From contig JAWCQE010000001.1 of NCBI GenBank assembly GCA_038869895.1, forward strand, positions 121,879 through 185,878: DNA of 64,000 nt. Reading direction: 5' to 3'. Source of the DNA: Candidatus Pacearchaeota archaeon. Its GTDB lineage: Archaea > Nanobdellota > Nanobdellia > Pacearchaeales > GW2011-AR1. How positions within the stretch are numbered: position 1 is the first letter of the stretch; the number at the start of each line of letters is the position of its first letter. A program made the translations under genes and the position numbers. Positions 1,290 to 40,020 of this stretch are shown in pieces. The notes beneath the pieces were generated by a model that saw only the letters and a list, made by a program, of their open reading frames with translations, was not told the origin of the DNA and did not search any database.

Positions 1290-1341
1290 CTTTGTTTAAA
1301 AGGAGAGATATGTTTAAAAATGACTTTTATTTTAAATTAAT

Positions 1342-2127: not shown

Positions 2128-2137
2128 TTAAACGTAA

Positions 2138-2569: not shown

Positions 2570-2826
2570 AAGTAACCTCCTTTGTATTAAGATAATAAAA
2601 TTATGTTAAATTCGTTTATAAACATTTCTGTTAGTTGACTCTTTTATTATTAGTTAGTAGAAGATAATAAAGAGAGAAACCTTTGTCTTTTTTATAAAAG
2701 TTAATAGTGTAAAAACTGCTAATTTTTTGAATTTTACTTTTTCAAATCTTTATTAATACTTTTATTCTTTCAAATTAATCTTTGATAGATTTTTTTAATT
2801 GACAATATCCTTTTGAAATTATTGTT

Positions 2827-3744: not shown

Positions 3745-3745
3745 T

Positions 3746-12968: not shown

Positions 12969-13155
12969 TATGAATATTAATAATAAAGAGATATTAGATT
13001 TTGTAAAAAGTAAAAAGATAGTTACAAGTTCAGAAGTTGCGAAAAAATTTAATATTTCATGGAATACTGCAGATAAATATCTTCTTGAACTCGCATTTAA
13101 TGATAAAATCGAAAGAATTAAAAAAGAAGGGGTGAATTTATGGATTTTAAAATAA
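12958..13155 (+). CDS. Small winged-helix DNA-binding protein (65 aa)
   Basis: ...ILDFVKSKKIVTSSEVAKKFNISWNTADKYLLELAFNDKIERIKKEGVNLWIL follows the HTH-plus-wing pattern of small archaeal wHTH regulators. The start is ambiguous (ATG at 12958 or 12970). Confidence 0.5.
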   Translation: MLNNMNINNKEILDFVKSKKIVTSSEVAKKFNISWNTADKYLLELAFNDKIERIKKEGVNLWILK

Positions 13156-13970
13156 AAAGTCAGATAAGTAAAAAATCAGCTTGCAAGAAAGGACAGGTGA
13201 CAATTTTTGTTATTATCTCTCTTCTTCTTGTTGTTGCAATAATCCTATTATTTATCCTTTACAAAAATCAGCAGATTCCTGGAGTAAGAGTCGAAAAAAC
13301 TTCTGGCGAGGAACTCGAGTCTTGTATTAAATCTTATCTTGAAGAAGCAGTCGATTTAATTTTTGAAAATTCTGGGTATATTGAACTGCCGGAATTAACT
13401 TATCAAATAAGAAATATTTATGGATATTACAAACAAGAAAATGAAAAGAAAATCCCTTATTTGTGTTATACTGCAATTAATTATGTAAGATGCATTCCGC
13501 AAGAGCCTTTTTTTGTAAACCATATAGAAGATGAAATAAAAAATTTCATAATTCCAAAAGTTGAGATATGTTTTGAGAATTTAAGGAATAGATTGCAAGA
13601 AAGAAATTATGAAACAATGTTTGGTATAACAAAAAATTTAGATGTTGAATTAAATGAAAGAGGAGTCCAAATTTATATTGAAAAAGAAATTTCGCAAACA
13701 AAAGCAGAGAAAGAAGAACGTTTTAGCGAATTTAAGTCTAATTATAAGACAAGATTGTATGATGTAGCAAAAATATCTGAAAAAATTATCACAGAGGAGG
13801 TTAAATTTTGCAATTCTGATTATGTTGAAGTGATGAGAAATAATAAATTAATTGAAATAACAAAATTTCAGACAGGAGATGATGTTAAAGTTTATTCTGT
13901 TAAGGATTTACCTTCAAAGAAAGAATTTAAATTTGCTGTAAGGAACTGTGTCCTTGCAACTCCATCTTAA
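13140..13970 (+). CDS. Prepilin-like protein, module A; paralog of 17934-18734
   Basis: The N-terminus ...SACKKGQVTIFVIISLLLVVAIILLFILY has a KG|Q context plus a hydrophobic helix. It appears to align end to end with the 17934 ORF, for example at ...PYLCYT..NY..C..Q and at the C-terminal F(K/N)FAVR. Confidence 0.55.
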   Translation: MDFKIKSQISKKSACKKGQVTIFVIISLLLVVAIILLFILYKNQQIPGVRVEKTSGEELESCIKSYLEEAVDLIFENSGYIELPELTYQIRNIYGYYKQENEKKIPYLCYTAINYVRCIPQEPFFVNHIEDEIKNFIIPKVEICFENLRNRLQERNYETMFGITKNLDVELNERGVQIYIEKEISQTKAEKEERFSEFKSNYKTRLYDVAKISEKIITEEVKFCNSDYVEVMRNNKLIEITKFQTGDDVKVYSVKDLPSKKEFKFAVRNCVLATPS

Positions 13971-13971
13971 A

Positions 13972-17898: not shown

Positions 17899-17933
17899 AT
17901 TTATAAAGAAATTTGTTTTTAGAAGGTAATAGA

Positions 17934-18734
17934 ATGATTAAATCAAAAAACAAAAGAGGACAGACAACAATCTTTGTTATCTTAGCAGTAGTTATTGTTG
18001 CAGTCATAGTGATTTTTTTTGCAGTTACGGATATAGGGAGAGAAACTTTTGAAAAAATCTCTAATATTGTTGGCAGTGATGAGATTAATGTTAAAGAAGA
18101 ATTGAATAAATGTTTTATTGATAACAGCGAAATCAATAAAAAAATAAATCTAATTATGTCACAGGGAGGAAGTATTGAACCTTCTTTATTTTTTCTTCAT
18201 AATGGAACGAAATTAAGTTATTTATGTTATACTAATGAATTTTATAAGACATGTGTAAATCAGCAGCCTTTAATATTACAACATACAAAGAATGAGATAA
18301 ATAGGGCAATTCTTCCAGAAATAGATAAATGTATTTCTTCATTAAAAGCCAATTTTGAAAAAAGAGGATATCAAATAAGAGGACAGAATTTCGAGAGTTC
18401 AATAGATATAATTCACAACAACATAATTATTAAAATAAATTTCCCTCTAACTATCAAAAAGGGGGATTTAACACAGACATTTGAAAATTTTGAAATAAAA
18501 AAACATAGCCAGTATTATCAATTATTAAGTGTTGCAACATCAATTGTAAATTTTGAATCCCAATATGGCGATAGTGATCCAGTTTTATATATGTCTCTTT
18601 ATCCGAATACAAGAGTTGAAAAATTAAAACAAGGAGATGGGACAACAATTTATAAGATTAGTGATAGGGAAACAATGGAAACTTTTAACTTTGCTGTAAG
18701 AAGTTTGGCTTTGCCTATAGGATATGGATTATAA
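17934..18734 (+). CDS. Prepilin-like protein, module B; paralog of 13140-13970
   Basis: The N-terminus is MIKSKNKRGQTTIFVILAVVIVAVIVIFFAV, with an RG|Q context. The ATG at 17934 is preceded by GAAGGT. The ORF-track start at 17913 is a TTG. Confidence 0.55.
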   Translation: MIKSKNKRGQTTIFVILAVVIVAVIVIFFAVTDIGRETFEKISNIVGSDEINVKEELNKCFIDNSEINKKINLIMSQGGSIEPSLFFLHNGTKLSYLCYTNEFYKTCVNQQPLILQHTKNEINRAILPEIDKCISSLKANFEKRGYQIRGQNFESSIDIIHNNIIIKINFPLTIKKGDLTQTFENFEIKKHSQYYQLLSVATSIVNFESQYGDSDPVLYMSLYPNTRVEKLKQGDGTTIYKISDRETMETFNFAVRSLALPIGYGL

Positions 18735-18750
18735 ATTCAAATAGTTAAAA

Positions 18751-20607
18751 ATGGTGATTGAAAAAAAAGAAGAAAAATTGAAGAGAAAATTTACAAGTAA
18801 TTACTTTTTAGGTTTTAGTCTGTTTATTTTTTTTATTTTATTTTTTTCATCTTATGTCACGGCGCAGACAACGACAGTATGCTGTGAAAAAACTTTAAAT
18901 GGAGCTTACTGCCAGAATTCCATTCAAAGCCAGTGTGATTCAAGATTTTTAAGTTCACAAACAAGCTGTGATGCGACTTCTTTCTGTCAATTAGGAGTTT
19001 GTTATGATAGTGATGATGGATTATGTATGAATAATGTTCCTCAAAGGGCATGTGAAGAAGCAAACGGATTGTGGACAAGTGATGCAAATCCTCCCCAATG
19101 CAATTTAGGATGTTGTATTCTTGGGCAGCAGGCTTCTTTTACAACTCTTCAAAGATGTAAGAAATTATCTGGAACTTACGGACTTCAAGTGGATTTCAGA
19201 ACAGACATCAAAGACGAAGTTTCTTGTATTGCAGTTGCAAATGCACAAGACATTGGAGCTTGTGTTTTTGAGTCAGAATTTACAAGAACCTGTAAATTTG
19301 TTACAAGAGCTGAATGTGGCACTTCAATGAACTCAACAAATTCAGGAGTAGTTCCTAATACGCAATTTTTCAAGGATTTTTTATGTACTTCAGAACAGCT
19401 TAATACAAACTGCCAGAGAACCTCAAAAACTTCTTGTTTTGAAGGAGAGGATGAAGTTTATTTTATTGATAGCTGTGGGAATAAGGCTAATATTTATGAT
19501 GCTTCAAGAATAAATGATAAAAATTATTGGGAAAAAAGAGTTCCTAAAAGTCAGAGCTGCACTGCCTCTAGGAATTCTAGAAGTTGTGGAAACTGCGATT
19601 ATCTTGAAGGAAGTATTTGTTCTAAAGCTAAAGATTCTGGTGTTAAGCCAGCTTATGGCGAATTTATCTGTAGGGATATAAATTGTTATAGTACTTCAAA
19701 TGGAAAAAATTACAAAAATGGGGAGTCATGGTGTTTTTACGACAATAATAATAAAGGGGATGATAGGGTTGGAAGTAGACATTTTAGGCATATTTGTTTT
19801 ATGGGAGAGGAAATTGTAGAACCATGCGCTGATTATAGGCAAGAAACATGCATTGAAGATTCGATAAATGTTGAGGGCGGTGGAACTTTTCTACAAGCAG
19901 GATGTGTTGTGAATAGGTGGCATGATTGTTTGTTGCAGAAAAGAATTGAAGATTGCCAAAATACTGATTTAAGAGATTGTAAATGGATTCCGGTTTCTGA
20001 AGAACCTGAAGAGATAGCAAAAGGGATAATTGATGCATCTTTAAATAAAATTACAAATGGATTTTCTGGATTATTAATGAATGTTATTGAAAAAGATGAA
20101 AGAGATAAAGGGGCTTGTGTTCCAGATATTGCTCCAGGACTTGAATTTTGGGGGGAGTCGGCGGCATCTCAGTGTGACTTAGTAAGTTCAAGTTGTGTTA
20201 TAACTTATGAAAAGACGTTAATTGGAGGAAAAAAGTGTGTTAAGAATTGCTTTTGTGATATAAAAGAAAACCCACAAACAGCAATTCAGGCATTGAATAT
20301 ATGTTCCTCTATAGGAGACTGCGGACCAGGAGCAAATTATATAGGAAAATTTGTTAATAATGGTTATGAACTAAGAATAGATGACAAAAAAATAGGTCCT
20401 GAACTTAATTTAGGAATTTTTACTGCTTCTCCTGTTCAAAGTGGAAGTCCTGCAAATCCCTCTACAAATCCCTCTTTTGAACAAAGAAGAGAATTTTCAA
20501 CAGCAACACAACAGACATTTCAAACTCAAACCTCAACTGCAACTTCAACAACAGGAAATATTATCAAAGATATAATAACTGAAACATATAAACAACTTGG
20601 AAAATAA
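18751..20607 (+). CDS. Cys-rich secreted protein, homolog of the N-terminal half of the 13972-17898 protein
   Basis: The signal peptide ends ...YVTA|QTTTVCC. It shares the motifs GCCILG, CGNCDY, NGESWCFYD and VGSRHFRHICFMGEEIVEPCADYRQETC. It has a T/Q/S-rich low-complexity C-terminus. Confidence 0.7.
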   Translation: MVIEKKEEKLKRKFTSNYFLGFSLFIFFILFFSSYVTAQTTTVCCEKTLNGAYCQNSIQSQCDSRFLSSQTSCDATSFCQLGVCYDSDDGLCMNNVPQRACEEANGLWTSDANPPQCNLGCCILGQQASFTTLQRCKKLSGTYGLQVDFRTDIKDEVSCIAVANAQDIGACVFESEFTRTCKFVTRAECGTSMNSTNSGVVPNTQFFKDFLCTSEQLNTNCQRTSKTSCFEGEDEVYFIDSCGNKANIYDASRINDKNYWEKRVPKSQSCTASRNSRSCGNCDYLEGSICSKAKDSGVKPAYGEFICRDINCYSTSNGKNYKNGESWCFYDNNNKGDDRVGSRHFRHICFMGEEIVEPCADYRQETCIEDSINVEGGGTFLQAGCVVNRWHDCLLQKRIEDCQNTDLRDCKWIPVSEEPEEIAKGIIDASLNKITNGFSGLLMNVIEKDERDKGACVPDIAPGLEFWGESAASQCDLVSSSCVITYEKTLIGGKKCVKNCFCDIKENPQTAIQALNICSSIGDCGPGANYIGKFVNNGYELRIDDKKIGPELNLGIFTASPVQSGSPANPSTNPSFEQRREFSTATQQTFQTQTSTATSTTGNIIKDIITETYKQLGK

Positions 20608-22692
20608 ATGGAGAATAAAAAGTTAAGAAGAATGAAAAAAAAGGGAATAAAAAAAAGTGAAGGATTATTTTTAATAGCGAATATTCTTTTAGGGATTTTT
20701 GCCTTTGCGTTTATTATGAACGTTGAAGTTGTTAGAGGGCAGGCGGACGGAGTAGGTTCTAATGGAGATGAGGAGGGGAAAGTTGAGGACCAGAATGGGA
20801 TTGGCAATAAGGGGGGGAAAACAGGGGAAGAAAAAGGATCTAAAAAATTTAAAATAGGTAATTTCACAAAATCAGCAAGTTATATAACAGGAGGACTTGC
20901 GTTAGGACAAATTATAAAAGAACTTGCTGGTGATGAACCATGGGGGGATGCATTAGGGAATGCGTTGGGAGTTGCTGGAGGAGTTTCAGGTTTTTCTAGT
21001 TTATTTCCTGAAAAAACCTTTTTAGGAGGTAATGCTCATTTATTAGGGGTAGGGGCAGGAATACTAACTTTTATTTTAACATACAAGAAAATTGAATATG
21101 AAACTGTTTTTTTTACATGTCAACCATGGGAAGCTCCTATTGGAGGGAATGACTGTGAGAAATGTAATGATGGAGTCCATCCATGTTCTGAATATAGGTG
21201 CAAGAGTTTAGGACAGGCTTGTGATTTAGTTAATAAAGGAACTGAAAAGGAACTCTGCGTCTGGACAAATCCAAGAGATGTAAATAGTCCTTCAATAAGG
21301 CCACTTGAAAGCGCTTTAAGTCCAGGATATAGATATGTTCCTTTAGGGGCAAGGCCTCCTAATTGGGGAACTCAAATAAAACCTTTGGGAGACGATTGTA
21401 TTCCTCCATTTACTCCAATACAATTTGGAATACAAACAGACAAACCTTCTCAATGTAAGATTGACTTTTTAATTCTTGGAGGAGCGGGAGATGTTGATGT
21501 AAAACCAAAAGGATACGATGATATGAAATTCTTTTTTGGCATGAGTAATTTATATGATTATAATCATATTCAATCTTTGAGCTTGCCAAGTCCTAATACT
21601 ATAAATAAAGTTGATGAATTAAGGCAGAATGAAACAGGAGGTTTAGAAATACAAAATGATGGCATATATAACTTATATGTGCGATGTAGAAGTGCGAATG
21701 GATTTTATAATGCAGACCCTTATAAAATAAATTTCTGTGTTCAGAAAGGGCCAGACTTAACTCCTCCAGAAATTGTTGAAACAAGCATAAGAAACGGACA
21801 GCCTATAAACTTTGAAGCGGATAATGTAACTTTAAGTGTATTTACAAACGAACCTGTAAATTGCAAATGGTCAAGAGATAATGATTTAAGTTTTGAGAGT
21901 ATGAATAATGAAATGATATGCGCTAATAACCTTCAGGATATAAGAAATAATATGCTTTATGAGTGTAGAACTAGATTGACTGGAATAAAAGATAGGCAGG
22001 ATAATTTATTTTATTTCAGATGTGAAGACCAGCCTTGGGAATCTCCAAGCAATAGAAATAAAATGTCTAGAGGATATCAATTTGTCTTAAAAGGAACACA
22101 GCCTTTGAATATTAAACAAGATTCAATAAAGCCAATATCAGGGAGCATTTTAACAGGAGCGACTTCAACAATTCCTATAACTCTGGAAGTTGAAACTCAA
22201 AATGGATTTAATGAGGGAGAATCTGTTTGTCTTTATAGTTTGAATAATGAAACTTTCATAAGATTTTTTGAAACAAATTCATTTAAGCACAAGCAGACTC
22301 AAGATTTAACTCAGGGAGAATATACTTATTATATAAGATGTGTGGATTTAGGAGGAAATCAAGATTATGGTATTACAACTTTCAGTGTTTTTGTTGACAC
22401 TCAAGCACCATTAATTACAAGAGTCCTAAATGATAATAATAAACTTAAGATAATTACAGATGAGGAAGCAGTATGTAGATATACAAATGATATAAATACA
22501 AGATGCAATTTTGACATTAACGAGGGAGAGGGAAATCCAATGCAATATCCTTCTCAAAATCAGAGAAAAGAACATCTTGCAATGTGGAATACAAAAGAGA
22601 CTTATTATATCAAATGTATGGATATTAACAATAGACAACCGAATCCGACAGAATGTTCAATAATTGTTCGTCCTGTTGAGTTAAGAGAATAA
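20608..22692 (+). CDS. Membrane-anchored Cys-rich protein, homolog of the C-terminal half of the 13972-17898 protein
   Basis: The ATG directly abuts the upstream TAA (20605-20607). It has an N-terminal anchor LFLIANILLGIFAFAFIM, a Gly-rich region, then FTCQPWEAPIGGNDCEKCNDGVHPCSEYRCKSLGQAC. These are followed by four repeats matching those of the fused protein. Confidence 0.7.
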   Translation: MENKKLRRMKKKGIKKSEGLFLIANILLGIFAFAFIMNVEVVRGQADGVGSNGDEEGKVEDQNGIGNKGGKTGEEKGSKKFKIGNFTKSASYITGGLALGQIIKELAGDEPWGDALGNALGVAGGVSGFSSLFPEKTFLGGNAHLLGVGAGILTFILTYKKIEYETVFFTCQPWEAPIGGNDCEKCNDGVHPCSEYRCKSLGQACDLVNKGTEKELCVWTNPRDVNSPSIRPLESALSPGYRYVPLGARPPNWGTQIKPLGDDCIPPFTPIQFGIQTDKPSQCKIDFLILGGAGDVDVKPKGYDDMKFFFGMSNLYDYNHIQSLSLPSPNTINKVDELRQNETGGLEIQNDGIYNLYVRCRSANGFYNADPYKINFCVQKGPDLTPPEIVETSIRNGQPINFEADNVTLSVFTNEPVNCKWSRDNDLSFESMNNEMICANNLQDIRNNMLYECRTRLTGIKDRQDNLFYFRCEDQPWESPSNRNKMSRGYQFVLKGTQPLNIKQDSIKPISGSILTGATSTIPITLEVETQNGFNEGESVCLYSLNNETFIRFFETNSFKHKQTQDLTQGEYTYYIRCVDLGGNQDYGITTFSVFVDTQAPLITRVLNDNNKLKIITDEEAVCRYTNDINTRCNFDINEGEGNPMQYPSQNQRKEHLAMWNTKETYYIKCMDINNRQPNPTECSIIVRPVELRE

Positions 22693-24969: not shown

Positions 24970-25159
24970 CTTTTTTTAAAAATTTTTTAGTATAAATAAA
25001 TATTGGAATTGATAAAATGGTGCAATCAATAATTTTTTTAAATGCCCCTAATTTTTTTATAAATTAATCTATGAAATTTGATATGCAGGCTTAAATCTAA
25101 TATTTAATGATATATAAGATAAAAAGGTTTAATAATATGATTTTATTTTAGAATAATTA

Positions 25160-25648
25160 ATGAAAAGAGGACAATTTCAACTTGGATTTGGAATGATTTT
25201 CTCTATTATATTGATAATTGCATTTATAATTGTTGCATTTATTGCTTTCAAAGCTTTTTTTGGAGTGAGGTGTTCTACTGAACAAGGAAGATTTATTTAT
25301 GAACTTCAGAATGAAATTGACAGGATATGGAAAGGCTCGGGCGAGGATAGGATTAAGGAATTTAAAATTTTAGGATGTGATTTTGATTATGTTTGTTTTT
25401 GGGATCCAAATGTTCCTTCAAGAGGAAATTTCAGAACTTTTGAAGACGATTTCAGTATTTTTACAGGAGATGAAGGAAACCATAATTTATATTTTTATCC
25501 AAGAAAAAAAGTAGAAATTTCTTCAACCTTGATAAAGCATATTAATATGGATTTTAGAGAGAATCCTGTATGTTTTAGAAACGAGGAGAATTCTGTTAAA
25601 ATAAGACTCAGCAAAAACATTGACGAAGATTTAGTAAGAGTCTCATAA
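25160..25648 (+). CDS. Prepilin-like protein (class III signal peptide)
   Basis: The N-terminus MKRGQFQLGFGMIFSIILIIAFIIVAFIAF has an RG|Q context. It is the first gene of a tightly packed four-gene run. Confidence 0.6.
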   Translation: MKRGQFQLGFGMIFSIILIIAFIIVAFIAFKAFFGVRCSTEQGRFIYELQNEIDRIWKGSGEDRIKEFKILGCDFDYVCFWDPNVPSRGNFRTFEDDFSIFTGDEGNHNLYFYPRKKVEISSTLIKHINMDFRENPVCFRNEENSVKIRLSKNIDEDLVRVS

Positions 25649-25649
25649 A

Positions 25650-26600
25650 ATGAATAAAAATGGTTTTGAGTTCAGCTTTGCATGGCTGTTTGCGATAATT
25701 GCTGGTGCAGCTGTGCTTTTTCTTGCAATTTTTTTTGCAACAAAATATGTTTCAACAAGCGAATTTGAAATTAATACAAAAATTGCAGCCGAATTTGTAA
25801 ATGTTCTTAATCCTTTGCAAACAAGTGTTTATGATTCATCTGCAATAAATGTATTTCTCCCATCTGAAGCGAGAATTTTTACTTCATGCGATAGTGGAGG
25901 AAATTTTGGAAGAAGTATTGTAACTTTTTCCGAAAAAATAGGTTTTGGTGAAAAATTTTCAAGGGCAGGCAATCCAATCTCAACTGAAAATTCATATTTA
26001 TTTGCTGAAAATATTATTGAAGGAAAAAAGATTAATTTTCTTGTTTTCTCTTTAAAAATGCCTTACAAAATTGGGGATATTCTTATAGCTTATTCTGATT
26101 CTTACTGCTTTGTAAATGCCCCAAGAAATATTGAGAGAGAACTTGGAGATTTAACAGAAGGAAATAGTTTTGATGTCATATTCACTTCAAATAAAAATGC
26201 CTGTCCTGAAAGTAAGCCTGTGTGTTTTGGAGGTTTTGAATGTGATATAAATGTAAGATGCAACGACAATGAATGTTTAAGTGGATTTGTAAGAAAGGAT
26301 GGAATGGATAATTATTTTACTGGAAAACTTTTATACGGAGCGATATTTTCGTCAAGGGAAAATTATGAGTGTAATGTTAAGAGATTAATGAAGAGGCTTG
26401 AATCAGTTAGCACTATTTATTCTAAAAAATCCCAGTTTATAGCTTCAAGAGGATGCACTAATACAAATTTGCTTCCATTAATTGAATCTCTTAGAGAATC
26501 TTCTGGAGAATTTGAAAGGCTTGAAAACCTCCCACAAATTTCCTCTATTGCAGACGAAGTAAATGAAAAAAATAAATATCTTGAATGCCAGTTATTTTAA
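25650..26600 (+). CDS. Prepilin-like protein
   Basis: The N-terminus MNKNGFEFSFAWLFAIIAGAAVLFLAIFFA has an NG|F context. It starts 1 nt after the upstream stop. Confidence 0.55.
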   Translation: MNKNGFEFSFAWLFAIIAGAAVLFLAIFFATKYVSTSEFEINTKIAAEFVNVLNPLQTSVYDSSAINVFLPSEARIFTSCDSGGNFGRSIVTFSEKIGFGEKFSRAGNPISTENSYLFAENIIEGKKINFLVFSLKMPYKIGDILIAYSDSYCFVNAPRNIERELGDLTEGNSFDVIFTSNKNACPESKPVCFGGFECDINVRCNDNECLSGFVRKDGMDNYFTGKLLYGAIFSSRENYECNVKRLMKRLESVSTIYSKKSQFIASRGCTNTNLLPLIESLRESSGEFERLENLPQISSIADEVNEKNKYLECQLF

Positions 26601-27125
26601 ATGAAAGATAAAAAAGCCCAATTAAAGATAAAGCAGATGATTTTTATGCTTCTAGCTCTAACTATTTTTTTTGTTCTTGTTGCTTTGTTTTTTATCTCAA
26701 TAAAATCAATTAACCTTGAGAAAGAGGTTGTTGAATTAAAAAGAGATAGAGCTTCTAACTTAGTTGAAAAACTTTCTTCAACTCCGGAATTTATATTTGA
26801 AAACAAACCAAATTCAATTGATGCAGATAAACTTATTATCCTTCAAAGTGAAAGTATATATAGAACGAGAACGGATTCGACTTTTTGGGGAGTTGAGGGG
26901 ATAATAGTAAGAAGAATTTATCCGAAAGAAAGAGAGATTGAATGCACTAAATTTAACTATCCTGAATGTAATATTATCAAACTTTTTACAGAAAAAAATA
27001 CAAGTCCAACTTCAAGTTTCGTTTCATGGTGTAGAAAACAAAGTCTTGAAGGAAGGACGTATGATAAATGCGAACTTGCAGAACTTATGATAATTGAGGA
27101 AAAAATAAATGAAGCTCAAGACTAA
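26601..27125 (+). CDS. Prepilin-like protein
   Basis: The N-terminus is MKDKKAQLKIKQMIFMLLALTIFFVLVALFFI. It abuts the upstream stop. Confidence 0.5.
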   Translation: MKDKKAQLKIKQMIFMLLALTIFFVLVALFFISIKSINLEKEVVELKRDRASNLVEKLSSTPEFIFENKPNSIDADKLIILQSESIYRTRTDSTFWGVEGIIVRRIYPKEREIECTKFNYPECNIIKLFTEKNTSPTSSFVSWCRKQSLEGRTYDKCELAELMIIEEKINEAQD

Positions 27126-27609
27126 AAAATCGCAGGAAGAAATAGTCGGGTTTGTTTTAATAGTTGTCCTTATTGCTATTATCGGAGTTATATTTTTAGG
27201 GATATCCTTAAGAAAGGATTCAGGTAAGGTTAATGAAAGCCAAAAAATTGCAAGCCTTATAACTTCAATATCTCATTTGACAACTCAGTGTCAGATAAAT
27301 TCAAATTTCCAAGATGTAAGTGATTTAATAAATGGGTGTGCTAATAGAAGAATTTGCGATGATTCAAAGCCTACTTGTGAAGTCTTAAAAACCACTCTTG
27401 ATGAGGTTATGAAAGCAAGTTATGTTGTAACTGATAAAAGCTTTACAACACATTATAATTTAACAATAAATAATAAATTTGATAATACTATTTTAATAGA
27501 GCCGGTAATTTCAGGAAAAGTTGAAAGATGTCTTGGAAGAAAACTCGTAAATGAAAAAAATTTTGGCAGAGATTTATCAATGAGGATTGAAGTCTGTTTT
27601 AATGAATAA
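27109..27609 (+). CDS. Prepilin-like protein
   Basis: The N-terminus is MKLKTKKSQEEIVGFVLIVVLIAIIGVIFLGI. It overlaps the upstream gene by 17 nt. Confidence 0.5.
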   Translation: MKLKTKKSQEEIVGFVLIVVLIAIIGVIFLGISLRKDSGKVNESQKIASLITSISHLTTQCQINSNFQDVSDLINGCANRRICDDSKPTCEVLKTTLDEVMKASYVVTDKSFTTHYNLTINNKFDNTILIEPVISGKVERCLGRKLVNEKNFGRDLSMRIEVCFNE

Positions 27610-27661: not shown

Positions 27662-28015
27662 TTAAATTCGCACAATAATGTTAATAGTATTGGCAGTCAA
27701 CACTGGCTTATGAGTTATCCTTCCGTTATGTTGTTCTGCTACTAAATCAATTAAGCCAAATTTTCTTAATAAAAGGACATCCTCTCTTAATGTTTTGAAA
27801 TCTCTATTTAATATTTTTGCTAAAGAGTAAAGGGATTTTGGTTGTTTCATTTTGATTGTATGTAATAATCTTGCTTTTTCATTACTTAGTAACTTCCTCA
27901 ATATTGATAAATCTTTAATGTTATAATCTTCTTTACTTCCTGTGAATTTTCTAAACACAGAGGCAAATGTCCCAGCTTTCTCGTATATATCTATTATCCT
28001 TGTTTTGTCAACCAT
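27662..28015 (-). CDS. Winged-helix transcriptional regulator
   Basis: ...ARLLHTIKMKQPKSLYSLAKILNRDFKTLREDVLLLRKFGLIDLV... follows the HTH-plus-wing pattern. The gene is divergent from the candidate S-layer gene. Confidence 0.55.
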   Translation of the reverse strand: MVDKTRIIDIYEKAGTFASVFRKFTGSKEDYNIKDLSILRKLLSNEKARLLHTIKMKQPKSLYSLAKILNRDFKTLREDVLLLRKFGLIDLVAEQHNGRITHKPVLTANTINIIVRI

Positions 28016-28460: not shown

Positions 28461-31115
28461 ATGAAAATTAATTTTAGAAAAGTCGGTTCAGTTATTGCGA
28501 GTGCAGCTATGCTTGGAAGCACAATGGGAATTGCTGTTGCAGCCTCTTATCCTGGTGCGTTTACTGCAGGAGGGGCTGGAGGAGTAGCAATAGTTACAGG
28601 AAGTATTGCAGCTTCAAGTGATTTTGTTGCAGCAACAGAGATAGGTTCAAATTTAAACAGTGCGATTGCTGCAGGTATAATTACTACTGGTGGAAGTGTT
28701 ACAACTAGTGGAGAAACAAAAGCACTTTTTACAGGTTCCTCAAAAATATATATGAATGATAGTATAAGCATAAATAAAGCTACTTTAACGAAAACTGATT
28801 TGCCAACTATTCTTGCAGATGGTGAATTTAATGGAAATGTTGATTCTGAATATACACAAAGAATTATTCTTGGTTCTTATCCAAGAGTTATTTTTGGAAA
28901 AATGCCAACAACTGAGAATGATCCTTTAACAGGAATCAACCTTGGCACAACAGTTACAACACAATATTTATATAATATGACAGTTACATTTGACGAAGCA
29001 GTTAACTTTACCCACTCTGATTCAAAAACAAAAGGGACTGAAATTACTTTATTTGGACAGAAATTTACAGTGGCTGGAGCTACAGATTCTAGTAAATTGG
29101 TATTATTGAAGTCAGCTCAAAAAATTACTTTGGGTCTTGGAGGAAACAATCCTAATCCAGTTCAATCTGTAACAGTTAATGATAGGACGTATACAGTAGA
29201 ACTTACAAATGTTCAAGATGATGAGGCCATAATTAAAGTAACTGATAGTAATGGACAAAGTTCAACAGCAAGAATTAGTGAAGGGGCTTCAAGAAAAGTT
29301 CAAGGATTAGAAGTTGCAGTTAACATAGCTACAGAATCAACTGCATTGAGTAGTGCATGGGCAGATATTATTGTTGGAACCTCAAAAGTTACTCTTCAAG
29401 ATGGAGAGCCTGTGAAAGTAGGTTCTGAGGATAAGATAATTGATGGTACTCAAGTTGATTTTGTTGATACCACATATACTGGGAATATAACTAGACTTGT
29501 TGTCCAAGTTGCAGCACCTGAAAGTGATAAAGATGCGATAACTCCTGCAATGTCATTTGTTGACCCTGTTTTTGGAGGTTTCAAAGTTGATTTTCCTGGA
29601 TTAAATATTGCAAATGAAGATGAAACTGCCAGAGAAATGATTGAAGTCAAGAATTCAGGAAGTGACAAAATGACTGTAAAATTTACAGACTATAATAAAG
29701 GTGAGATAACCTTTAATTGGGTCTATAACAGATCTAATTCACAGGGAGGAATTATGAGATTAGCAGATTCAAACAACAGAAGGATAATTGTTGCTGAAAT
29801 GTCTCCTATAAATAAATCAGAATATGTTATGGTTGGAAATGAAGATGAAGGAGGATTGTACCAAGTTGTAACAATCACAAATTCTTCGGGATTTTCAGAT
29901 GATTCAGTTGAATTAAGAGATGTTATTACAGGAAAAACTGAAAAAGCTTCTATTACTGCTGAAGGTTCTGGAACTATTGTCCTTAATGGAAAGACATATG
30001 AGGTAAGTTATTTTGCACCAAACACTTTAACTGACACAGCAAGAACCATAAGATTAAATTATCCTGACAGTTCAGGCAATAGTGTAATCTTATATCCTAC
30101 AATTGAAACGTCAAAAGGAGCAAAAATTGCTTTCTATGAACCATTAACTATAGATCTGATGACTCAACATGCTGGAGGCAATTTATCTGGACATAATATA
30201 AAATTTCCAGATGGAGATGGTTATACTGACGCCGCAGTTGTTATTGTAAATACAACTACTGGAATGGTGACTATAGATGGGAACAATCTTAATACAGGTG
30301 CTTCAGATGGAGCAAGTTCTACAACTAAAACTGTCGGAAGATTAACTTACAATTTCACAAGTACAGGTGTTGGTAACAATACGAAGGTCTATCTTCAAGC
30401 AATTCCAGGAGTAAATATTGTAAGGCCTGCAATAATCCTTTTTGAAGAAAAAGATGACCAAAATAATTACGAGGCTGTAGTTATTACATTAGATTCAGGT
30501 TATGACGGAGATAGTGCAGGAATCGGAGTCCAAAATGTTATAAGAACATGGGGGCTTGATGGTTCTAATGGAGATTCAGATGCATGGAATGATGTAAGAC
30601 TTGAAAGCAATGATGACTTGTATCAAGACATGGATAGATGGGGAACAATAATCACTGCTGATAAATCTGATAGTGATCAAACAAGGGCTGTAATAAGCTA
30701 CCCAGATGAACAAGTATATGCACAAGTCTATGTATCTTCATCAAATGCAGTCGTGTCTTCAGGAAATGGAGGAGCAGGAACCGTAATGGTTGTGAGAGAT
30801 AATGAAGTTGACAACATTGCAAACAAGAATCTGATTGTTGTTGGGGGTAGCTGTGTAAATACATTAGCTGCTGAATTGCTTGGAAGTTCAAATCCTTTAT
30901 GTGGAAGGGATTTCACTGCAAGAACAAATGTCGGTGTTGGAGAATACCTAATTGAAACTTTCTCACGAACTGACGGAAAAATTGCTACCTTAGTCGCAGG
31001 ATATGAAGCTGATGATACAAGGGCTGCAGCAAGGTCTTTGGTAACAAATAATCCAGAGATTGCTTCTGGTGTCAAGTATAAAGGTTCGACTTCAGGCTCA
31101 TTCACAAGAGCGTAA
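28461..31115 (+). CDS. Candidate S-layer / major surface glycoprotein (884 aa)
   Basis: A strong SD (GGAGGT, 5 nt before the ATG) precedes a signal peptide ending ...MGIAVAAS. The protein is Thr/Ser/Asn/Gly-rich with many N-x-S/T sequons. Its only two Cys sit in the C-terminal NLIVVGGSCVNTLAAELLG...LCG segment. I recall that motif type from archaeal S-layer proteins. A long T-rich tract follows the stop. Confidence 0.6.
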   Translation: MKINFRKVGSVIASAAMLGSTMGIAVAASYPGAFTAGGAGGVAIVTGSIAASSDFVAATEIGSNLNSAIAAGIITTGGSVTTSGETKALFTGSSKIYMNDSISINKATLTKTDLPTILADGEFNGNVDSEYTQRIILGSYPRVIFGKMPTTENDPLTGINLGTTVTTQYLYNMTVTFDEAVNFTHSDSKTKGTEITLFGQKFTVAGATDSSKLVLLKSAQKITLGLGGNNPNPVQSVTVNDRTYTVELTNVQDDEAIIKVTDSNGQSSTARISEGASRKVQGLEVAVNIATESTALSSAWADIIVGTSKVTLQDGEPVKVGSEDKIIDGTQVDFVDTTYTGNITRLVVQVAAPESDKDAITPAMSFVDPVFGGFKVDFPGLNIANEDETAREMIEVKNSGSDKMTVKFTDYNKGEITFNWVYNRSNSQGGIMRLADSNNRRIIVAEMSPINKSEYVMVGNEDEGGLYQVVTITNSSGFSDDSVELRDVITGKTEKASITAEGSGTIVLNGKTYEVSYFAPNTLTDTARTIRLNYPDSSGNSVILYPTIETSKGAKIAFYEPLTIDLMTQHAGGNLSGHNIKFPDGDGYTDAAVVIVNTTTGMVTIDGNNLNTGASDGASSTTKTVGRLTYNFTSTGVGNNTKVYLQAIPGVNIVRPAIILFEEKDDQNNYEAVVITLDSGYDGDSAGIGVQNVIRTWGLDGSNGDSDAWNDVRLESNDDLYQDMDRWGTIITADKSDSDQTRAVISYPDEQVYAQVYVSSSNAVVSSGNGGAGTVMVVRDNEVDNIANKNLIVVGGSCVNTLAAELLGSSNPLCGRDFTARTNVGVGEYLIETFSRTDGKIATLVAGYEADDTRAAARSLVTNNPEIASGVKYKGSTSGSFTRA

Positions 31116-31291
31116 AAACAATTTATTTTTACTTTTTCTTTTATTTTTTATTTATAAAATAATTATATATTAATTAAATTATAAAAAGTCAATAAACTAA
31201 TGTATCGTTCATTTAAAAAATAAAACTTGTTAAGAGATTATTGAATAATTTTATTAATAAACTTTTTAAACAAGATTTGATATTTTATAAA

Positions 31292-31885
31292 ATGAGAAGA
31301 ATTGAGACAAAAGAAGATGCTGAAAAGAGGAAGAGAAGAAACCAGATAATTATTGCATTTGTTTTTATTAGTATTCTTACAAGTAGCACTATAGGATTTG
31401 TTTTTGTATTTAAAAATCCAGAATTTGATTCAAGTGAAAATAAGGAAAGTATAGATTATAATGGAATTAATTTTGTAAGAAACCAGCGAGGATATTGGCA
31501 ATTTAATTCTCACAATAGTACCTTTTTTACTTTATTTAATCCAAAAGAAACAGAAAATATTTCTTTTGAAGGAGAGGTAAATGTTAACGATTTTGTTAAT
31601 AAACCTCTTTATTATTCATCTGGAAATATGACTGCAGCACTTTCAGAACTAATGAGAAACATTGGAAGTTTCTCACTTAGGTATCAAGAAGTATGTGTTG
31701 AGAATTATGAATGTAAGAATGAAGGACTGCCTATAAAAGACTGTTCAAATGATATTATTATATTAAAATTATCAGATGAAATAAAAGCTTATAAACAGGA
31801 AAAATGTATTTTCCTTGAAGGAACTGAGGAAGAATTAATTTTGCTTGCAGATAAATTAATCTATAAATCTTTAGGTATTCAATAA
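31292..31885 (+). CDS. N-terminally membrane-anchored hypothetical protein; paralog of the next gene
   Basis: The ATG at 31292 gives MRRIETKEDAEKRKRRNQIIIAFVFISILTSS, whereas the ORF-track start at 31241 is a TTG. It shares a C-terminal pattern with ORF 31885: ...C....(I/L)(I/Y)L......K......KC.(F/V)L......EL. Confidence 0.45.
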   Translation: MRRIETKEDAEKRKRRNQIIIAFVFISILTSSTIGFVFVFKNPEFDSSENKESIDYNGINFVRNQRGYWQFNSHNSTFFTLFNPKETENISFEGEVNVNDFVNKPLYYSSGNMTAALSELMRNIGSFSLRYQEVCVENYECKNEGLPIKDCSNDIIILKLSDEIKAYKQEKCIFLEGTEEELILLADKLIYKSLGIQ

Positions 31886-32562
31886 TGAAAGAACAAAAAG
31901 AGATTAAAAAGGAATCTTTAGAAAATAGAACAAAGGAAGAAGATAAAGACTCTTATCAGGAAGTAGGAGTTAAATGGCTCTTTATAATCCTTGCGTTTTT
32001 AGTTACTTCATTGATTATTGTTGGATGGATTTTATCAGAATCAAAGAAATCTGATTATATTGGACTGACTTTTAAAAAAGAGAATTTTGGTGAAATTCCA
32101 ATTTATACAACTTCTCTTACAGGATATGGTGTTAATGGAAAACCAATTGATTTTAAATTAATATTGAGAAATAATCCTAAAGAATCAAAAATACCAGTAA
32201 TTGGAGAAGTTGATTTTGTAATTGGTAAACCCATATATCTTTCTCTTAACATGGAAGGAGAATTATACAAATGTGGTTCTACTCCTTTAGTTGCCTTTGG
32301 CCAGTTTATGGATGCAATGGGTTTTAATATACAAACTGGAATAAGCACAGAAGATAAGGCAAATGAATTTCAAAGAGAATATATAACATGCCTTAATACT
32401 CCAGATGCTACGGTTTTATATCTTACTGAAGGCAATGAAAGTAAAATAGAAAGAGTTGACGATAAGTGCTATGTTTTAAGTGTAAATAATTGCGAACTTA
32501 CAGAAGTTCTTGAGAGGTTTGAGATAGCAACACTTTCAACATTAACAGGAAAATCGCTTTAA
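31885..32562 (+). CDS. N-terminally membrane-anchored hypothetical protein
   Basis: It has an acidic/Lys-rich N-terminus, a single TM helix (WLFIILAFLVTSLIIVGWIL) and an extracytoplasmic domain. Its start overlaps the upstream stop (ATAATG). Confidence 0.45.
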   Translation: MKEQKEIKKESLENRTKEEDKDSYQEVGVKWLFIILAFLVTSLIIVGWILSESKKSDYIGLTFKKENFGEIPIYTTSLTGYGVNGKPIDFKLILRNNPKESKIPVIGEVDFVIGKPIYLSLNMEGELYKCGSTPLVAFGQFMDAMGFNIQTGISTEDKANEFQREYITCLNTPDATVLYLTEGNESKIERVDDKCYVLSVNNCELTEVLERFEIATLSTLTGKSL

Positions 32563-32679: not shown

Positions 32680-33219
32680 TCATTTATTTTTTATATATTT
32701 CATAAAATAATTTACATCAGAATAAATAGGAATTTCCTTTATTTCAAAAATATAAATTGCTGAAAACCATATTATGACAACAAAAATCGTGCTTAATCCA
32801 TACCAAAAAAATTTATGTGTTATATCAAAGAATTGATAATTCGATAAAAAGAGGGATGAAAGGACAATAATTCTTATAATGTTAAATCCAAGAAAAACTG
32901 CGAATAGATAAATAAGTGAGTAAAGTCTTTTTTTATTTTCCATAGGTGTTGAGAGGTTTAGAATTAAAATAAGATAATATGCAGAGCCCGCGATACATGA
33001 TTCTATTAAGTTAATTGTTACGTTGTCTACAATTATACTTATTCCAGAAATATTTGTTGAGTAAAATAATTTTAATACATAAAAAACTGGATAAATTGTA
33101 AGAGGAGTTAACACTTTGTAGATTATCCAAAGATTTCCAATCCCAATAACAGCAAGAAAAATATATCTAAAGAGAATATTATAATAATTATAATTATTTG
33201 GCACCTTTCTTTTTTTCAT
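32680..33219 (-). CDS. Miniature exosortase/archaeosortase-family protein (candidate transpeptidase)
   Basis: It is a 179-aa all-TM protein. A Cys in ...NLIESCIAGSAYY..., an Arg in ...GFNIIRIIV... 41 residues later and a His in ...DITHKFFWYG... resemble the Cys/Arg/His signature arrangement of the family. Confidence 0.5.
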   Translation of the reverse strand: MKKRKVPNNYNYYNILFRYIFLAVIGIGNLWIIYKVLTPLTIYPVFYVLKLFYSTNISGISIIVDNVTINLIESCIAGSAYYLILILNLSTPMENKKRLYSLIYLFAVFLGFNIIRIIVLSSLFLSNYQFFDITHKFFWYGLSTIFVVIIWFSAIYIFEIKEIPIYSDVNYFMKYIKNK

Positions 33220-33259
33220 TTAATACTATATTAAGATTAACTAGTTTAAAAACCTTATA

Positions 33260-34897
33260 TTATCTTTTTGCTATCCTTATGGCAACGATAATTATTAATA
33301 TTATTAATACAACATTAATAATAGCTATTAGCCAGATAATCCAATTTTCCCTTATATTGTTGGCAATTGAACTTCCTGTGAGTCCTTTTATTCCACTCCA
33401 ACCAACTTTTGGCTGAATGTTTGGAACACTTATTTTTTTTTCAGTTACTCTTCCATTGTGAGATACTTGGAGTGTAAAATCGTTATTTCCTGAGACGTCG
33501 CTATTTGGAGTTAAGGAAATTACAACCTCTCTTGAACTTCCTGCATCCAATGTTATTGTTCTTGGCTCAATTGAATTTAATGATGCCCATGTATCGTAAT
33601 TTAGGGCTGAAATTTGATATAATGTCTGTTCAGTTCCTGTGTTTGTTATTGTTGTTTTTATTATAAGATTTTGTCCTGCTACAGCACCAGACTCAAGTCT
33701 TGCTGAAATCCCCACAGAACTCTGTGAAGTTGTTGTAGTGGATCCCTGGCAATTTCCTTTGATTGTGAGAGGAATTGTAAATATTGATTCTTTTTCATCA
33801 GCATCTTCAAAATAATTTCCGTCTTCGTCATAAACCTCAAATCTCAAATTATATGTGCCTTCCCTAATATTTTTTGGAATTTCAAGAAGGAATGAAGTTC
33901 TTTTATCATCTAATGAATCTATATCCCCAAGTTCAATTATTTTCTGAAATCCAAATTCATTTACACTAACTTTTAATTCTACATCATCTTGGTTATCACT
34001 TCCAATATTCCAAAATGTTGCAGCAGTTACATCTACACTTGAACCACATTGCAAAGTTTCTGGCAGACTTAATTTATTGAAGTCCAAAATTATGAAATCT
34101 TCATCTATAAGTTCTGCTTCTTTTGTTTCATAAGCACATTGGACGTTTTCTCCAACATCATCACTAAATGCTTTTACAATGAGCATTAAGTTATCTCCTA
34201 AATCATCTTCACTGAAATCGTCAGGGTCTAGTTTAATTTTGATTGTTAGAATTTTGTTTTTTCCGTCGCTTAAATCAAATTCTTCTTCATCATTTTCATC
34301 AATTATTTTCCCTGTATTTTTATTAATAAGCATCCATTCAACAATTATGTCCCTTATTTTTTCATCATCTCTATTATCAACTTTAACTTCAAGTTCAATT
34401 TCATCTAATAAATACCATTCATCATCTTTTCCGTGTCCATTGTTATTTATGTGAAGTCTTACTCTTAAATCCCCCACATTGCCAACACTACAGAAAGTAT
34501 TTGTAAATGATACTGAAACATTTATTTTTTTTGTATTATTTGGACTTGCAACTTCCACAGCTTCAATTTCAATATTTTTTGTCTGTTGGATAAATGAAAA
34601 TCCATCCTCAATATTTAATACTGAAATTTTAAATCTTGCTGTTTTGACGTCTGTTATTGATGTTTCATTTATTATGGAAAGAGTAGCTTTTTTATCATTA
34701 TTATCTGTTATTTGCACTGATGAAGGGAAATTAAAATTTACAGACACATTATTTGTCACTGAAATTGTAAAAGTAGTAGTTGATGATTTGCTTACTATAG
34801 GTGATGGAGTTGTAGAACTTAAAACAGGTTCTACTGCGGATACAAATGAAATTATAAAAATGCTTGCCAAAAAAATTGATAGTACTTTTGATTTCAT
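33260..34897 (-). CDS. Secreted surface protein with beta-sandwich (CARDB-like) repeats and a C-terminal TM + basic sorting-type tail
   Basis: The signal peptide ends MKSKVLSIFLASIFIISFVSA|VEP. The C-terminus is ...IRENWIIWLIAIINVVLIILIIIVAIRIAKR. The segment ...TLDAGSSREVVISLTPNSDVSGNNDFTLQVSH is CARDB-like. Confidence 0.6.
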   Translation of the reverse strand: MKSKVLSIFLASIFIISFVSAVEPVLSSTTPSPIVSKSSTTTFTISVTNNVSVNFNFPSSVQITDNNDKKATLSIINETSITDVKTARFKISVLNIEDGFSFIQQTKNIEIEAVEVASPNNTKKINVSVSFTNTFCSVGNVGDLRVRLHINNNGHGKDDEWYLLDEIELEVKVDNRDDEKIRDIIVEWMLINKNTGKIIDENDEEEFDLSDGKNKILTIKIKLDPDDFSEDDLGDNLMLIVKAFSDDVGENVQCAYETKEAELIDEDFIILDFNKLSLPETLQCGSSVDVTAATFWNIGSDNQDDVELKVSVNEFGFQKIIELGDIDSLDDKRTSFLLEIPKNIREGTYNLRFEVYDEDGNYFEDADEKESIFTIPLTIKGNCQGSTTTTSQSSVGISARLESGAVAGQNLIIKTTITNTGTEQTLYQISALNYDTWASLNSIEPRTITLDAGSSREVVISLTPNSDVSGNNDFTLQVSHNGRVTEKKISVPNIQPKVGWSGIKGLTGSSIANNIRENWIIWLIAIINVVLIILIIIVAIRIAKR

Positions 34898-37171: not shown

Positions 37172-37197
37172 TTAGTGTTTAGTTTAATCCATTGAGG

Positions 37198-40020
<2,823 letters not shown>

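What the first reader, a model, noticed from the sequence alone, without database searches (positions are those of the whole stretch)
25160..27609. Second stand-alone operon of four prepilin-like proteins with no assembly genes
Four tightly packed or overlapping + strand genes (162, 316, 174 and 166 aa) each begin with a short basic segment. This is followed by a G/A/S|Q/F junction and a ~20-residue hydrophobic helix (MKRGQFQLGFGMIF..., MNKNGFEFSFAWLF..., MKDKKAQLKIKQMIF..., MKLKTKKSQEEIVGFV...). The mature parts contain paired Cys and match no family I recognise. The operon lies between a membrane AlbA_2 protein and the HTH regulator/S-layer locus.
Basis: partly seen in the sequence, partly recalled or inferred. 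Interest (0 to 1): 0.5.

Follow-up and report, generated by a model that had tools for sequence, protein, structure and literature searches.

The report
Pilin-like operon beside S-layer gene
Four adjacent genes in a tiny (DPANN) archaeon encode undescribed surface proteins with the N-terminal signature of type IV pilins, and this operon sits next to the S-layer-like gene in most of the 83 related loci examined, so it is a conserved cell-envelope component, not an isolated oddity.

Summary
Four translationally coupled + strand genes (C1 25160-25648, C2 25650-26600, C3 26601-27125, C4 27109-27609) each start with a 4-8 residue basic leader, a small residue at -1, Q or F at +1, and a hydrophobic helix.

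About 76 orthologues per family confirm a class III (prepilin) junction. Position -1 is A/G/S, freely interchanged; -2 is mostly K/R. Q(+1) is invariant in C3 and C4. The N-terminal helix is the most conserved part of each protein. AlphaFold models of C2 and C4 show a long protruding N-terminal helix. Their head domains match no solved fold or curated family.

The operon is not stand-alone. In most of 83 related Pacearchaeota/Woesearchaeota loci the order is C1-C2-C3-C4, HTH regulator (-), S-layer-like protein, D1-D2, pacearchaeosortase and its target. The Cys-rich module often lies upstream. No assembly gene lies within 10 kb in any locus. This genome, however, has a secretion ATPase and two platform genes 18-25 kb away.

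Best reading: minor-pilin-like subunits of a hetero-oligomeric envelope structure linked to the S-layer. Cleavage, assembly and function are untested. I rate it a new variant of a known kind, of moderate interest.

The parts
25160..25648 (+). C1, 162 aa: class III-type N-terminus MKRG|Q, then the conserved helix SFGMIFSIILII and a disulfide-bonded head domain
   Evidence: position -1 is G54/A8/S3 and +1 is Q45, of 76; co-varying Cys pair. Present upstream of C2 in at least 65/78 loci.
25650..26600 (+). C2, 316 aa: largest subunit. Family consensus is KRG|FEFSFAWLFAIIVGA. It has 8 invariant Cys and the motif AAIFSSxEIYECNVKRLMKRL.
26601..27125 (+). C3, 174 aa: KK[AGS]|QLKIQQMAF, with invariant Q(+1) and conserved K(+3) and Q(+5)
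   Evidence: position -1 is A37/G30/S10; Q 78/78; K72/R4 at +3. Downstream of C2 in 74/77 loci.
27109..27609 (+). C4, 166 aa: KK[AGS]|QEE[MI]VGFVLI, with invariant Q(+1), E(+3) and G(+6); overlaps C3 by 17 nt
25100..25159 (+). Possible own promoter (BRE/TATA-like aaaaaggtttaataata, about 20-35 nt before the C1 ATG); weak evidence in 29%-GC DNA
   Evidence: sequence read only.
27662..28015 (-). HVO_A0114-family winged-HTH regulator, convergent with C4 and divergent from the S-layer-like gene; conserved partner
   Evidence: PF25212, E 8e-14; at least 55/71.
28461..31115 (+). Secreted S-layer-like protein (PF05124) with a Sec-type signal and no C-terminal membrane anchor
   Evidence: None of 49 orthologues has a C-terminal TM. 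Within 7 kb of C2 in 44/52 loci. Reciprocal synteny 3/3.
31241..32562 (+). D1 (214 aa) and D2 (225 aa): paralogous N-terminally anchored Cys-containing proteins conserved after the S-layer-like gene
   Evidence: hhalign 96.5%; 44/50 and 42/50.
32680..34897 (-). Pacearchaeosortase (E1) and its PACE-CTERM target (E2), which NCBIfam names 'putative S-layer protein'; the end of the conserved envelope locus
   Evidence: NF033505, 202 bits; NF033506, 377 bits. (34/34 have a C-terminal TM plus basic tail). (35/44).
13140..22692 (+). Cys-rich module B: class III proteins B1 and B3 alternate with giant Cys-rich membrane proteins B2 and B4+B5. It lies directly upstream of C1 in many relatives; here an insertion separates them.
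   Evidence: 23/38 within 10 kb upstream.
19..7036 (.). Candidate assembly system in the same genome: two T2SSF platform genes, a KaiC-like ATPase and pilin set A (A1-A5, including a class III + VWA protein). The T2SSE ATPase lies just before the window start.

Best explanation
C1-C4 are four non-homologous type IV pilin-like (class III signal peptide) proteins made in fixed proportion from one translationally coupled operon.

Inferred mechanism: each is inserted in the membrane through its N-terminal helix with the disulfide-bonded head outside. An EppA/PibD-type prepilin peptidase then cleaves after the small residue at -1. This exposes Q1 (C1, C3, C4) or F1 (C2).

The mature N-terminal helices, each distinct and highly conserved, then pack together into a hetero-oligomeric pilus-like assembly. 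This would be a minor-pilin or pseudopilus-type tip or base complex. Conserved charges near the new N-termini may pair between subunits: E2 in C2, K3 in C3, and E2/E3 in C4.

Assembly would use the type IV filament ATPase and platform encoded 18-25 kb away, as other archaeal pilin sets encoded outside the machinery locus do.

The operon is inherited together with the HTH regulator, the anchorless S-layer-like protein, D1/D2 and the pacearchaeosortase system. The structure is therefore most likely a constitutive part of the cell envelope that works with or through the S-layer.

Shown: the gene structure, the junction signature, helix conservation, the predicted architecture, the synteny, and the presence of machinery in the genome. 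Inferred: cleavage, co-assembly, dependence on the machinery, and the link to the S-layer.
For: Junction statistics over about 76 orthologues per family: -1 is only G/A/S (one T in C3 and C4), -2 and -3 are K/R, and Q(+1) is 78/78 in C3 and 76/76 in C4. Leaders are 4-8 aa here. This matches the reference pattern for M. maripaludis EppA substrates, a 5-13 aa leader with Q at +1 (PMC3875500).

The N-terminal helix is the most conserved region (majority frequency 0.65-0.71 against 0.41-0.50 for the rest). Plain-anchor controls D1 and D2 show no such excess.

AF2 models show a 48-residue N-terminal helix in C2 and a kinked helix packing on the head in C4.

Even-numbered, invariant or co-varying Cys place the heads outside the cell.

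The operon is tight everywhere, with median gaps of 1, -16 and -4 nt.

Seven other proteins in the window carry the same [KR][GAS]|Q/Y junction. Some are canonical Q+1/E+5 pilins next to T2SSF platform genes, and the T2SSE ATPase is just upstream.

It is established that archaeal pilin genes lie outside machinery loci, that one ATPase/TadC pair can serve different pilin sets, and that S-layer-like proteins recur in T4P loci (PMC4858521).
Against: No assembly ATPase, platform or peptidase lies within 10 kb of the operon in any of 83 loci. No A24 prepilin peptidase gene was found in the window or in the 10 kb before it.

No curated pilin or class III model is matched.

The +5 Glu typical of EppA-type and bacterial pilins is absent.

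No major-pilin candidate is assigned to this set. Co-assembly of the four subunits is pure inference, because no multimer model could be run.
Confidence: 0.5

Rival explanations
1. S-layer tether or scaffold. C1-C4 (possibly with D1/D2) stay in the membrane as monotopic proteins, cleaved or not. They form a fixed complex in the space under the S-layer that holds or organises the anchorless S-layer-like protein, without any filament ATPase. This would be the functional counterpart of a stalk protein such as SlaB, or of FlaF binding the S-layer.
For: None of 49 S-layer-like orthologues has a membrane anchor of its own. The operon is adjacent to that gene in 44/52 loci, and the reciprocal test was positive 3/3. 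No assembly genes lie nearby in 83 loci. The locus is chromosomal, not viral, and lies beside the archaeosortase system. There is precedent for a monotopic archaellin-like protein that binds the S-layer (FlaF, PMC4425475; title and abstract seen).
Against: A plain tether does not need an invariant Q(+1) and a G/A/S-only -1 position; that is a protease-site signature. The locus also holds a second candidate S-layer protein (E2) with its own PACE-CTERM anchor, so the 884-aa protein may be an accessory S-layer-like protein. There is no direct evidence of binding.
Confidence: 0.25
2. Ordinary Sec-inserted type II membrane proteins. The N-termini are uncleaved signal anchors, and the resemblance to prepilins is incidental.
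For: No hit to curated class III or pilin HMMs. The head folds are not pilin-like. No peptidase gene was seen.
Against: The junction is conserved position by position in four unrelated families: -1 small residues only, -2 and -3 basic, and +1 Q invariant in two families. The helices are more conserved than the heads, unlike the true anchors D1 and D2 in the same locus. The same junction occurs in canonical Q+1/E+5 pilins of this genome.
Confidence: 0.1
3. Bindosome-like receptors. Class III signal proteins with ligand-binding heads are displayed on a short pilus-like stalk to capture substrates or signals, as with the sugar-binding proteins of Sulfolobales.
Confidence: 0.07

Closest known systems
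Archaeal minor pilins of the Epd / clade-1 (system 1) type IV pilus (M. maripaludis EpdA-C and other EppA substrates)
   Same: Both have a short basic leader ending in a small residue, Q at +1 and a hydrophobic helix. Both comprise several different class III proteins per system, some encoded away from the ATPase/TadC locus. This genome's machinery has two platform genes, as in that system.
   Different: There is no sequence match to DUF361/Class_IIIsignal or Pilin_N models, and no +5 Glu. The heads are larger, Cys-rich and of unknown fold. The operon is fixed next to the S-layer-like gene, not in the pilus locus.
Bacterial minor-pilin / minor-pseudopilin sets (GspH-I-J-K of type II secretion; FimU-PilV-W-X of type IVa pili)
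   Same: Both are four different pilin-like genes in one operon, with one subunit about twice the size of the others (C2, 316 aa). C2 has G|F at the junction as in bacteria, and an invariant Gly at mature position 14. The comparison with these bacterial sets rests on my own knowledge.
Class III signal substrate-binding proteins and the bindosome of Sulfolobales
   Same: Both attach class III signals to heads that are not pilin folds, and both are encoded away from the assembly genes.
   Different: There is no solute-binding fold and no ABC transporter nearby.
FlaF/FlaG (ArlF/ArlG), monotopic archaellin-like proteins that bind the S-layer
   Same: Both have an N-terminal hydrophobic helix plus an extracellular domain, and a functional link to the S-layer (PMC4425475; title and abstract seen).
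   Different: FlaF/FlaG are encoded in the archaellum operon, have beta-sandwich heads and are not part of a four-gene set. No homology was detected.

Membership tests
Class III signal peptide (type IV prepilin-like) proteins | Short positively charged leader ending in a small residue (G/A/S) at -1 with K/R at -2 | tested here: met
   In C3, -1 is A37/G30/S10/T1 and -2 is K57/R10. In C4, -1 is A30/G30/S15/T1 and -2 is K/R in 62/76. In C1, -1 is G54/A8/S3. C2's consensus is KRG.
Class III signal peptide (type IV prepilin-like) proteins | About 20 hydrophobic residues directly after the junction, forming the start of a long N-terminal alpha-helix | tested here: met
   Hydropathy. AF2 gives helix 10-57 in C2 and helices 10-33 plus 41-55 in C4. 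C1 and C3 were not modelled.
Class III signal peptide (type IV prepilin-like) proteins | Cleavage by an A24-family prepilin peptidase (PibD/FlaK/EppA) present in the genome | not testable with these tools
   No A24 peptidase in the 64-kb window or the 10 kb before it. The only intramembrane aspartyl protease seen is an SPP/presenilin homologue at 54905-55873. The rest of the genome could not be read.
Class III signal peptide (type IV prepilin-like) proteins | Match to curated N-terminal models (PF04021 Class_IIIsignal, PF07790 Pilin_N, NCBIfam archaeal pilin/flagellin N-terminal models) | tested here: not met
   Searches give none. Family-wide scans show only sub-threshold Pilin_N in 2/38 C4 members (E 0.06) and none in C2.
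EppA-type (DUF361) archaeal pilins | Conserved Gln at +1 | tested here: met
   C3 78/78, C4 76/76, C1 45/76. C2 has F instead. Reference pattern: PMC3875500.
EppA-type (DUF361) archaeal pilins | Conserved Glu at +5 | tested here: not met
   Position +5 is S in C1, F in C2, Q in C3 and V in C4. Acidic residues sit at +2 (C2) and +2/+3 (C4). Canonical Q+1/E+5 pilins do exist elsewhere in this genome.
Type IV filament system component | Secretion ATPase (T2SSE) and platform protein (T2SSF) available | tested here: met
   They are in the genome: T2SSF at 19-1289 (two genes) and a T2SSE just upstream of the window. They are not in the locus: 0 of 83 loci have a platform homologue within 10 kb.
Type IV pilin head domain | Alpha-beta roll (bacterial) or Ig-like beta-sandwich (archaeal) head packed on the C-terminal half of the N-terminal helix | tested here: inconclusive
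Minor pseudopilin/minor pilin complexes (GspHIJK, FimU-PilVWX) | Sequence or fold homology to those subunits | tested here: not met
Bindosome-type class III substrate-binding proteins | Solute-binding-protein fold and adjacent ABC transporter | tested here: not met
   No such fold in the match lists. No ABC transporter genes in the locus gene tables.

The most novel reading that the evidence does not exclude
Type IV pilin-like proteins have been recruited as the membrane root of the cell wall. After prepilin-type processing, C1-C4 would form a short hetero-tetrameric pseudopilus that tethers or threads the anchorless S-layer-like protein of Pacearchaeota/Woesearchaeota. D1/D2 and the pacearchaeosortase target would be further parts of the same envelope machine. 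This would be a new job for the type IV filament superfamily, and a lineage-wide answer to how these S-layers are held on.
Probability: 0.2. Interest if true: 0.75.

Novelty: new variant of a known kind. Interest (0 to 1): 0.45.

Why it matters
Pacearchaeota and Woesearchaeota are abundant, uncultivated, ultra-small archaea thought to live attached to other cells. Their surface is where that lifestyle is decided, yet almost none of their envelope proteins have a name.

This work defines four protein families absent from Pfam and NCBIfam. The C2 family alone has about 1,800 representatives at 50% identity. Two of the families have high-confidence models, and all four have a clear processing signature.

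It also shows that these families belong to one vertically inherited envelope locus, together with the S-layer-like protein, a regulator and the pacearchaeosortase system. That gives annotators names for these genes. It gives experimenters concrete targets: cleavage assays, multimer models, and cryo-ET labelling in enrichment cultures. It also offers a testable idea for how an anchorless S-layer-like protein is held on the cell.

Tried and rejected
- Paralogy among C1-C4, or with the window's other pilin sets, was rejected. BLASTP matches only the N-termini. hhalign on trimmed head domains gives probabilities of 2.3% or less; D1/D2, at 96.5%, served as a positive control.
- Known-family assignment failed: Pfam and NCBIfam on single proteins, Pfam family-wide for C2 and C4, and PDB sequence profiles gave nothing or only TM-helix noise.
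- A mobile or viral origin was rejected: no relatives on viral contigs, and the flanks are housekeeping genes.
- The search for a prepilin peptidase found none in the window or in the 10 kb upstream of it. The candidate at 54905-55873 is an SPP/presenilin homologue, not an A24 peptidase.
- My first regex scan for class III signals was too crude and was replaced.
- Iterated HMMs drifted through the shared helix, so I assigned each ORF to its best-scoring family.
- The literature search found no description of this operon. 'Pacearchaeosortase' and 'PACE-CTERM' do not occur in the searchable library.
Full report
**Source and context.** The window is archaeal: it holds an archaeal 23S rRNA at 37181-40015. 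GC content is about 29%. C2 is identical to a hypothetical protein of a 'Candidatus Pacearchaeota archaeon' MAG, locus tag QW727_00840, on a 221-kb contig.

**Observation.** The four ORFs lie exactly where stated. They are C1 25160-25648 (162 aa), C2 25650-26600 (316 aa), C3 26601-27125 (174 aa) and C4 27109-27609 (166 aa). The spacers are 1 nt and 0 nt, and C3 and C4 overlap by 17 nt.
- Each protein has one hydrophobic segment starting at residue 5-8.
- That segment follows a 4-8 residue basic leader and a G, A or S.
- Pfam and NCBIfam give no hit.

**Are the N-termini class III signals or plain anchors?** I collected orthologues from 83 related loci and from database searches.
- In C3, position -1 is A37/G30/S10/T1, -2 is K57/R10, +1 is Q in 78/78, +3 is K72/R4 and +5 is Q76.
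- In C4, -1 is A30/G30/S15/T1, -3 and -2 are K/R in 69 and 62 of 76, +1 is Q in 76/76, +3 is E in 76/76 and +6 is G in 76/76.
- In C1, -1 is G54/A8/S3 and +1 is Q45 of 76.
- The C2 consensus is KRG|FEFSFAWLFAIIVGA, with invariant F10, F14 and G19.

Free exchange among small residues at -1, next to an invariant +1, is what a protease site looks like. The reference pattern for M. maripaludis EppA substrates is a 5-13 residue leader ending in Gly with a conserved +1 Gln (PMC3875500).

The helix is also the most conserved part of each protein. Mean majority frequency is 0.65-0.71 for the helix against 0.41-0.50 for the rest. The plain N-terminal anchors D1 and D2 in the same locus give 0.50/0.45 and 0.34/0.41.

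Seven further proteins of the window carry the same [KR][GAS]|Q/Y junction (A1-A5, B1 and B3). These include canonical Q+1/E+5 pilins. A further canonical pilin lies next to the ATPase just upstream of the window.

**Limits of the class III assignment.**
- The +5 Glu is absent.
- Curated class III and pilin HMMs are not matched.
- No A24 peptidase gene is in the window or in the 10 kb before it.

**Heads.**
- The four head domains are unrelated to each other, to B3 and to D1/D2.
- Cysteines are conserved in even numbers. C2 has 8 invariant Cys.
- C1 has one invariant pair and one pair gained or lost together (33 both, 41 neither, 2 single). This indicates disulfides and an extracytoplasmic location.
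- The AF2 model of C2 is confident (pLDDT 92, pTM 0.86). It has a helix at 10-57, a beta-rich region at 63-155, a mixed Cys-rich part and a helical bundle at 227-309.
- The AF2 model of C4 (pLDDT 87) has helices 10-33 and 41-55 and an alpha/beta head.
- PDB sequence profiles find nothing.

So the proteins share pilin architecture at the N-terminus, but their heads are new.

**Distribution.**
- C2 has 111 clusters at 90% identity.
- A profile search of 1.84 billion representatives gives 1,798 hits at E<=1e-3 and 429 at E<=1e-30. The top 150 are all full-length proteins of 289-367 aa.
- 140 species-level genomes carry the family. Almost all are labelled Pacearchaeota, Woesearchaeota or Nanoarchaeota.
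- A few odd labels (Thorarchaeota, 'bacterium', Daviesbacteria) look like binning noise.
- There are no relatives on viral contigs.

**Synteny.** The recurrent order is [B3/B2/B4/B5] - C1 C2 C3 C4 - HTH(-) - S-layer-like protein - D1 D2 - E1(-) E2(-). The counts below are lower bounds, taken only from loci long enough to test each gene.

| Gene(s) | Loci with it / loci testable |
|---|---|
| C3 | 74/77 |
| C4 | 71/74 |
| C1 | 65/78 |
| HTH | 55/71 |
| S-layer-like protein | 44/52 |
| D1 | 44/50 |
| D2 | 42/50 |
| E1 | 35/44 |
| Any B gene within 10 kb upstream | 23/38 |

- C1 is truly missing or unrecognisable in a few loci.
- Median gaps within the operon are 1, -16 and -4 nt. The gap from B to C1 is about 110 nt.
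- As a reciprocal test I took three S-layer-like homologues chosen without regard to C2. All three have the quartet and the HTH upstream.
- E1 is the curated pacearchaeosortase, and E2 is its PACE-CTERM target, which NCBIfam names 'putative S-layer protein'. All 34 E2 orthologues end in a TM helix plus a basic tail.
- None of 49 S-layer-like orthologues has a C-terminal anchor.
- In this window a CBM96 gene and a membrane AlbA_2 gene are inserted between B5 and C1. The closest relatives share the AlbA_2 gene.
- Where B is absent, the upstream genes are housekeeping.

**Assembly genes.**
- No platform homologue lies within 10 kb of C2 in any locus.
- The window itself starts inside a type IV filament locus. 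It has two T2SSF platform genes (19-330 and 327-1289), a KaiC-like ATPase and pilin set A, which includes an 820-aa class III + VWA protein.
- An identical platform protein on another assembly has a T2SSE ATPase directly upstream, a second T2SSE further on, and another canonical pilin.
- It is established that pilin genes lie outside the machinery locus, that one ATPase/TadC pair can serve several pilin sets, and that S-layer-like proteins recur in T4P loci (PMC4858521).
- A 2026 survey of archaeal TFF systems, in the passages read, does not describe this operon. The pacearchaeosortase terms are absent from the searchable literature.

**Interpretation.** The best-supported reading is that C1-C4 are minor-pilin-like subunits. 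They would be processed at the conserved junction and joined through their distinct, conserved N-terminal helices into a hetero-oligomeric envelope structure. They would use the distant filament machinery and work with the S-layer.
- The opposite conserved charges near the mature N-termini (K3 in C3; E2/E3 in C4; E2 in C2) suggest pairing, but this is inference only.
- The main rival is a static tether for the anchorless S-layer-like protein.
- A plain signal-anchor reading fits the junction statistics poorly.
- A bindosome-like receptor reading rests only on a marginal fold hit.

**Verdict.** The feature is real and conserved, and the class III signature is convincing. The 'stand-alone' label is wrong. 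The kind of system, archaeal type IV pilin-like proteins encoded away from their machinery, is known. The four families, their head folds and their fixed place in an S-layer/archaeosortase locus of DPANN archaea appear undescribed. I rate it a new variant of a known kind with interest 0.45.

Noticed in passing
window 13140-22692 (+): Cys-rich module. A repeated unit pairs a ~275-aa class III protein (B1, B3; paralogues, E 1e-19) with a giant Cys-rich membrane protein. B2 (1316 aa, 72 Cys) equals B4 (618 aa) plus B5 (694 aa) fused. None matches Pfam or NCBIfam. It lies directly upstream of the C operon in many relatives.
   Followed up: partly
window 32680-33219 (-) and 33260-34897 (-): Pacearchaeosortase (NF033505, 202 bits) next to its PACE-CTERM target, which NCBIfam names 'putative S-layer protein' (NF033506, 377 bits). 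All 34 orthologues of the target end in a TM helix plus basic tail. Neither term occurs in the searchable literature.
   Followed up: partly
window 28461-31115 (+): The 884-aa S_layer_C protein and all 49 orthologues checked lack any C-terminal membrane anchor. The locus therefore holds two different candidate S-layer proteins, one anchorless and one sortase-anchored.
   Followed up: partly
window 31241-31885 and 31885-32562 (+): D1 and D2 are paralogues (hhalign 96.5%). They have an N-terminal anchor and conserved Cys, and they follow the S-layer-like gene in 42-44 of 50 loci. No family match.
   Followed up: partly
L001 8987-9691; L085 3802-4209: In two relatives a phosphatase gene sits inside the operon: Metallophos between C2 and C3, and LMWPc between C1 and C2. 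Unexplained.
   Followed up: no
window 22849-23541 (-) and 23839-24969 (-): A secreted CBM96 protein and a five-TM protein with a C-terminal Schlafen/AlbA_2 domain form a minus-strand insertion between B5 and C1. The AlbA_2 gene is shared by the closest relatives (L004-L006).
   Followed up: partly
window 19-7036, and L087 (10 kb before the window): A type IV filament locus: a T2SSE ATPase, two T2SSF platform genes, a KaiC-like ATPase and a minus-strand pilin set. The set includes an 820-aa class III + VWA protein and canonical Q+1/E+5 pilins. Set A and set C are organised alike: three small Q(+1) subunits plus one large subunit with an aromatic residue at +1.
   Followed up: partly
window 37181-40015 (-): The 23S rRNA gene stands alone, with no 16S or 5S gene detected in the window. 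Its GC content (about 43%) contrasts with about 29% around it.
   Followed up: no
window 54905-55873 (-): Presenilin/signal-peptide-peptidase homologue (PF06550, E 2e-14) with YD and GGGD motifs. It is an intramembrane aspartyl protease but not the A24 prepilin peptidase type.
   Followed up: no
window 25650-26600, residue G19: The invariant Gly of C2 falls at mature position 14, the position of the helix-kinking Gly14 of bacterial type IVa pilins. The comparison is from memory and was not tested.
   Followed up: no
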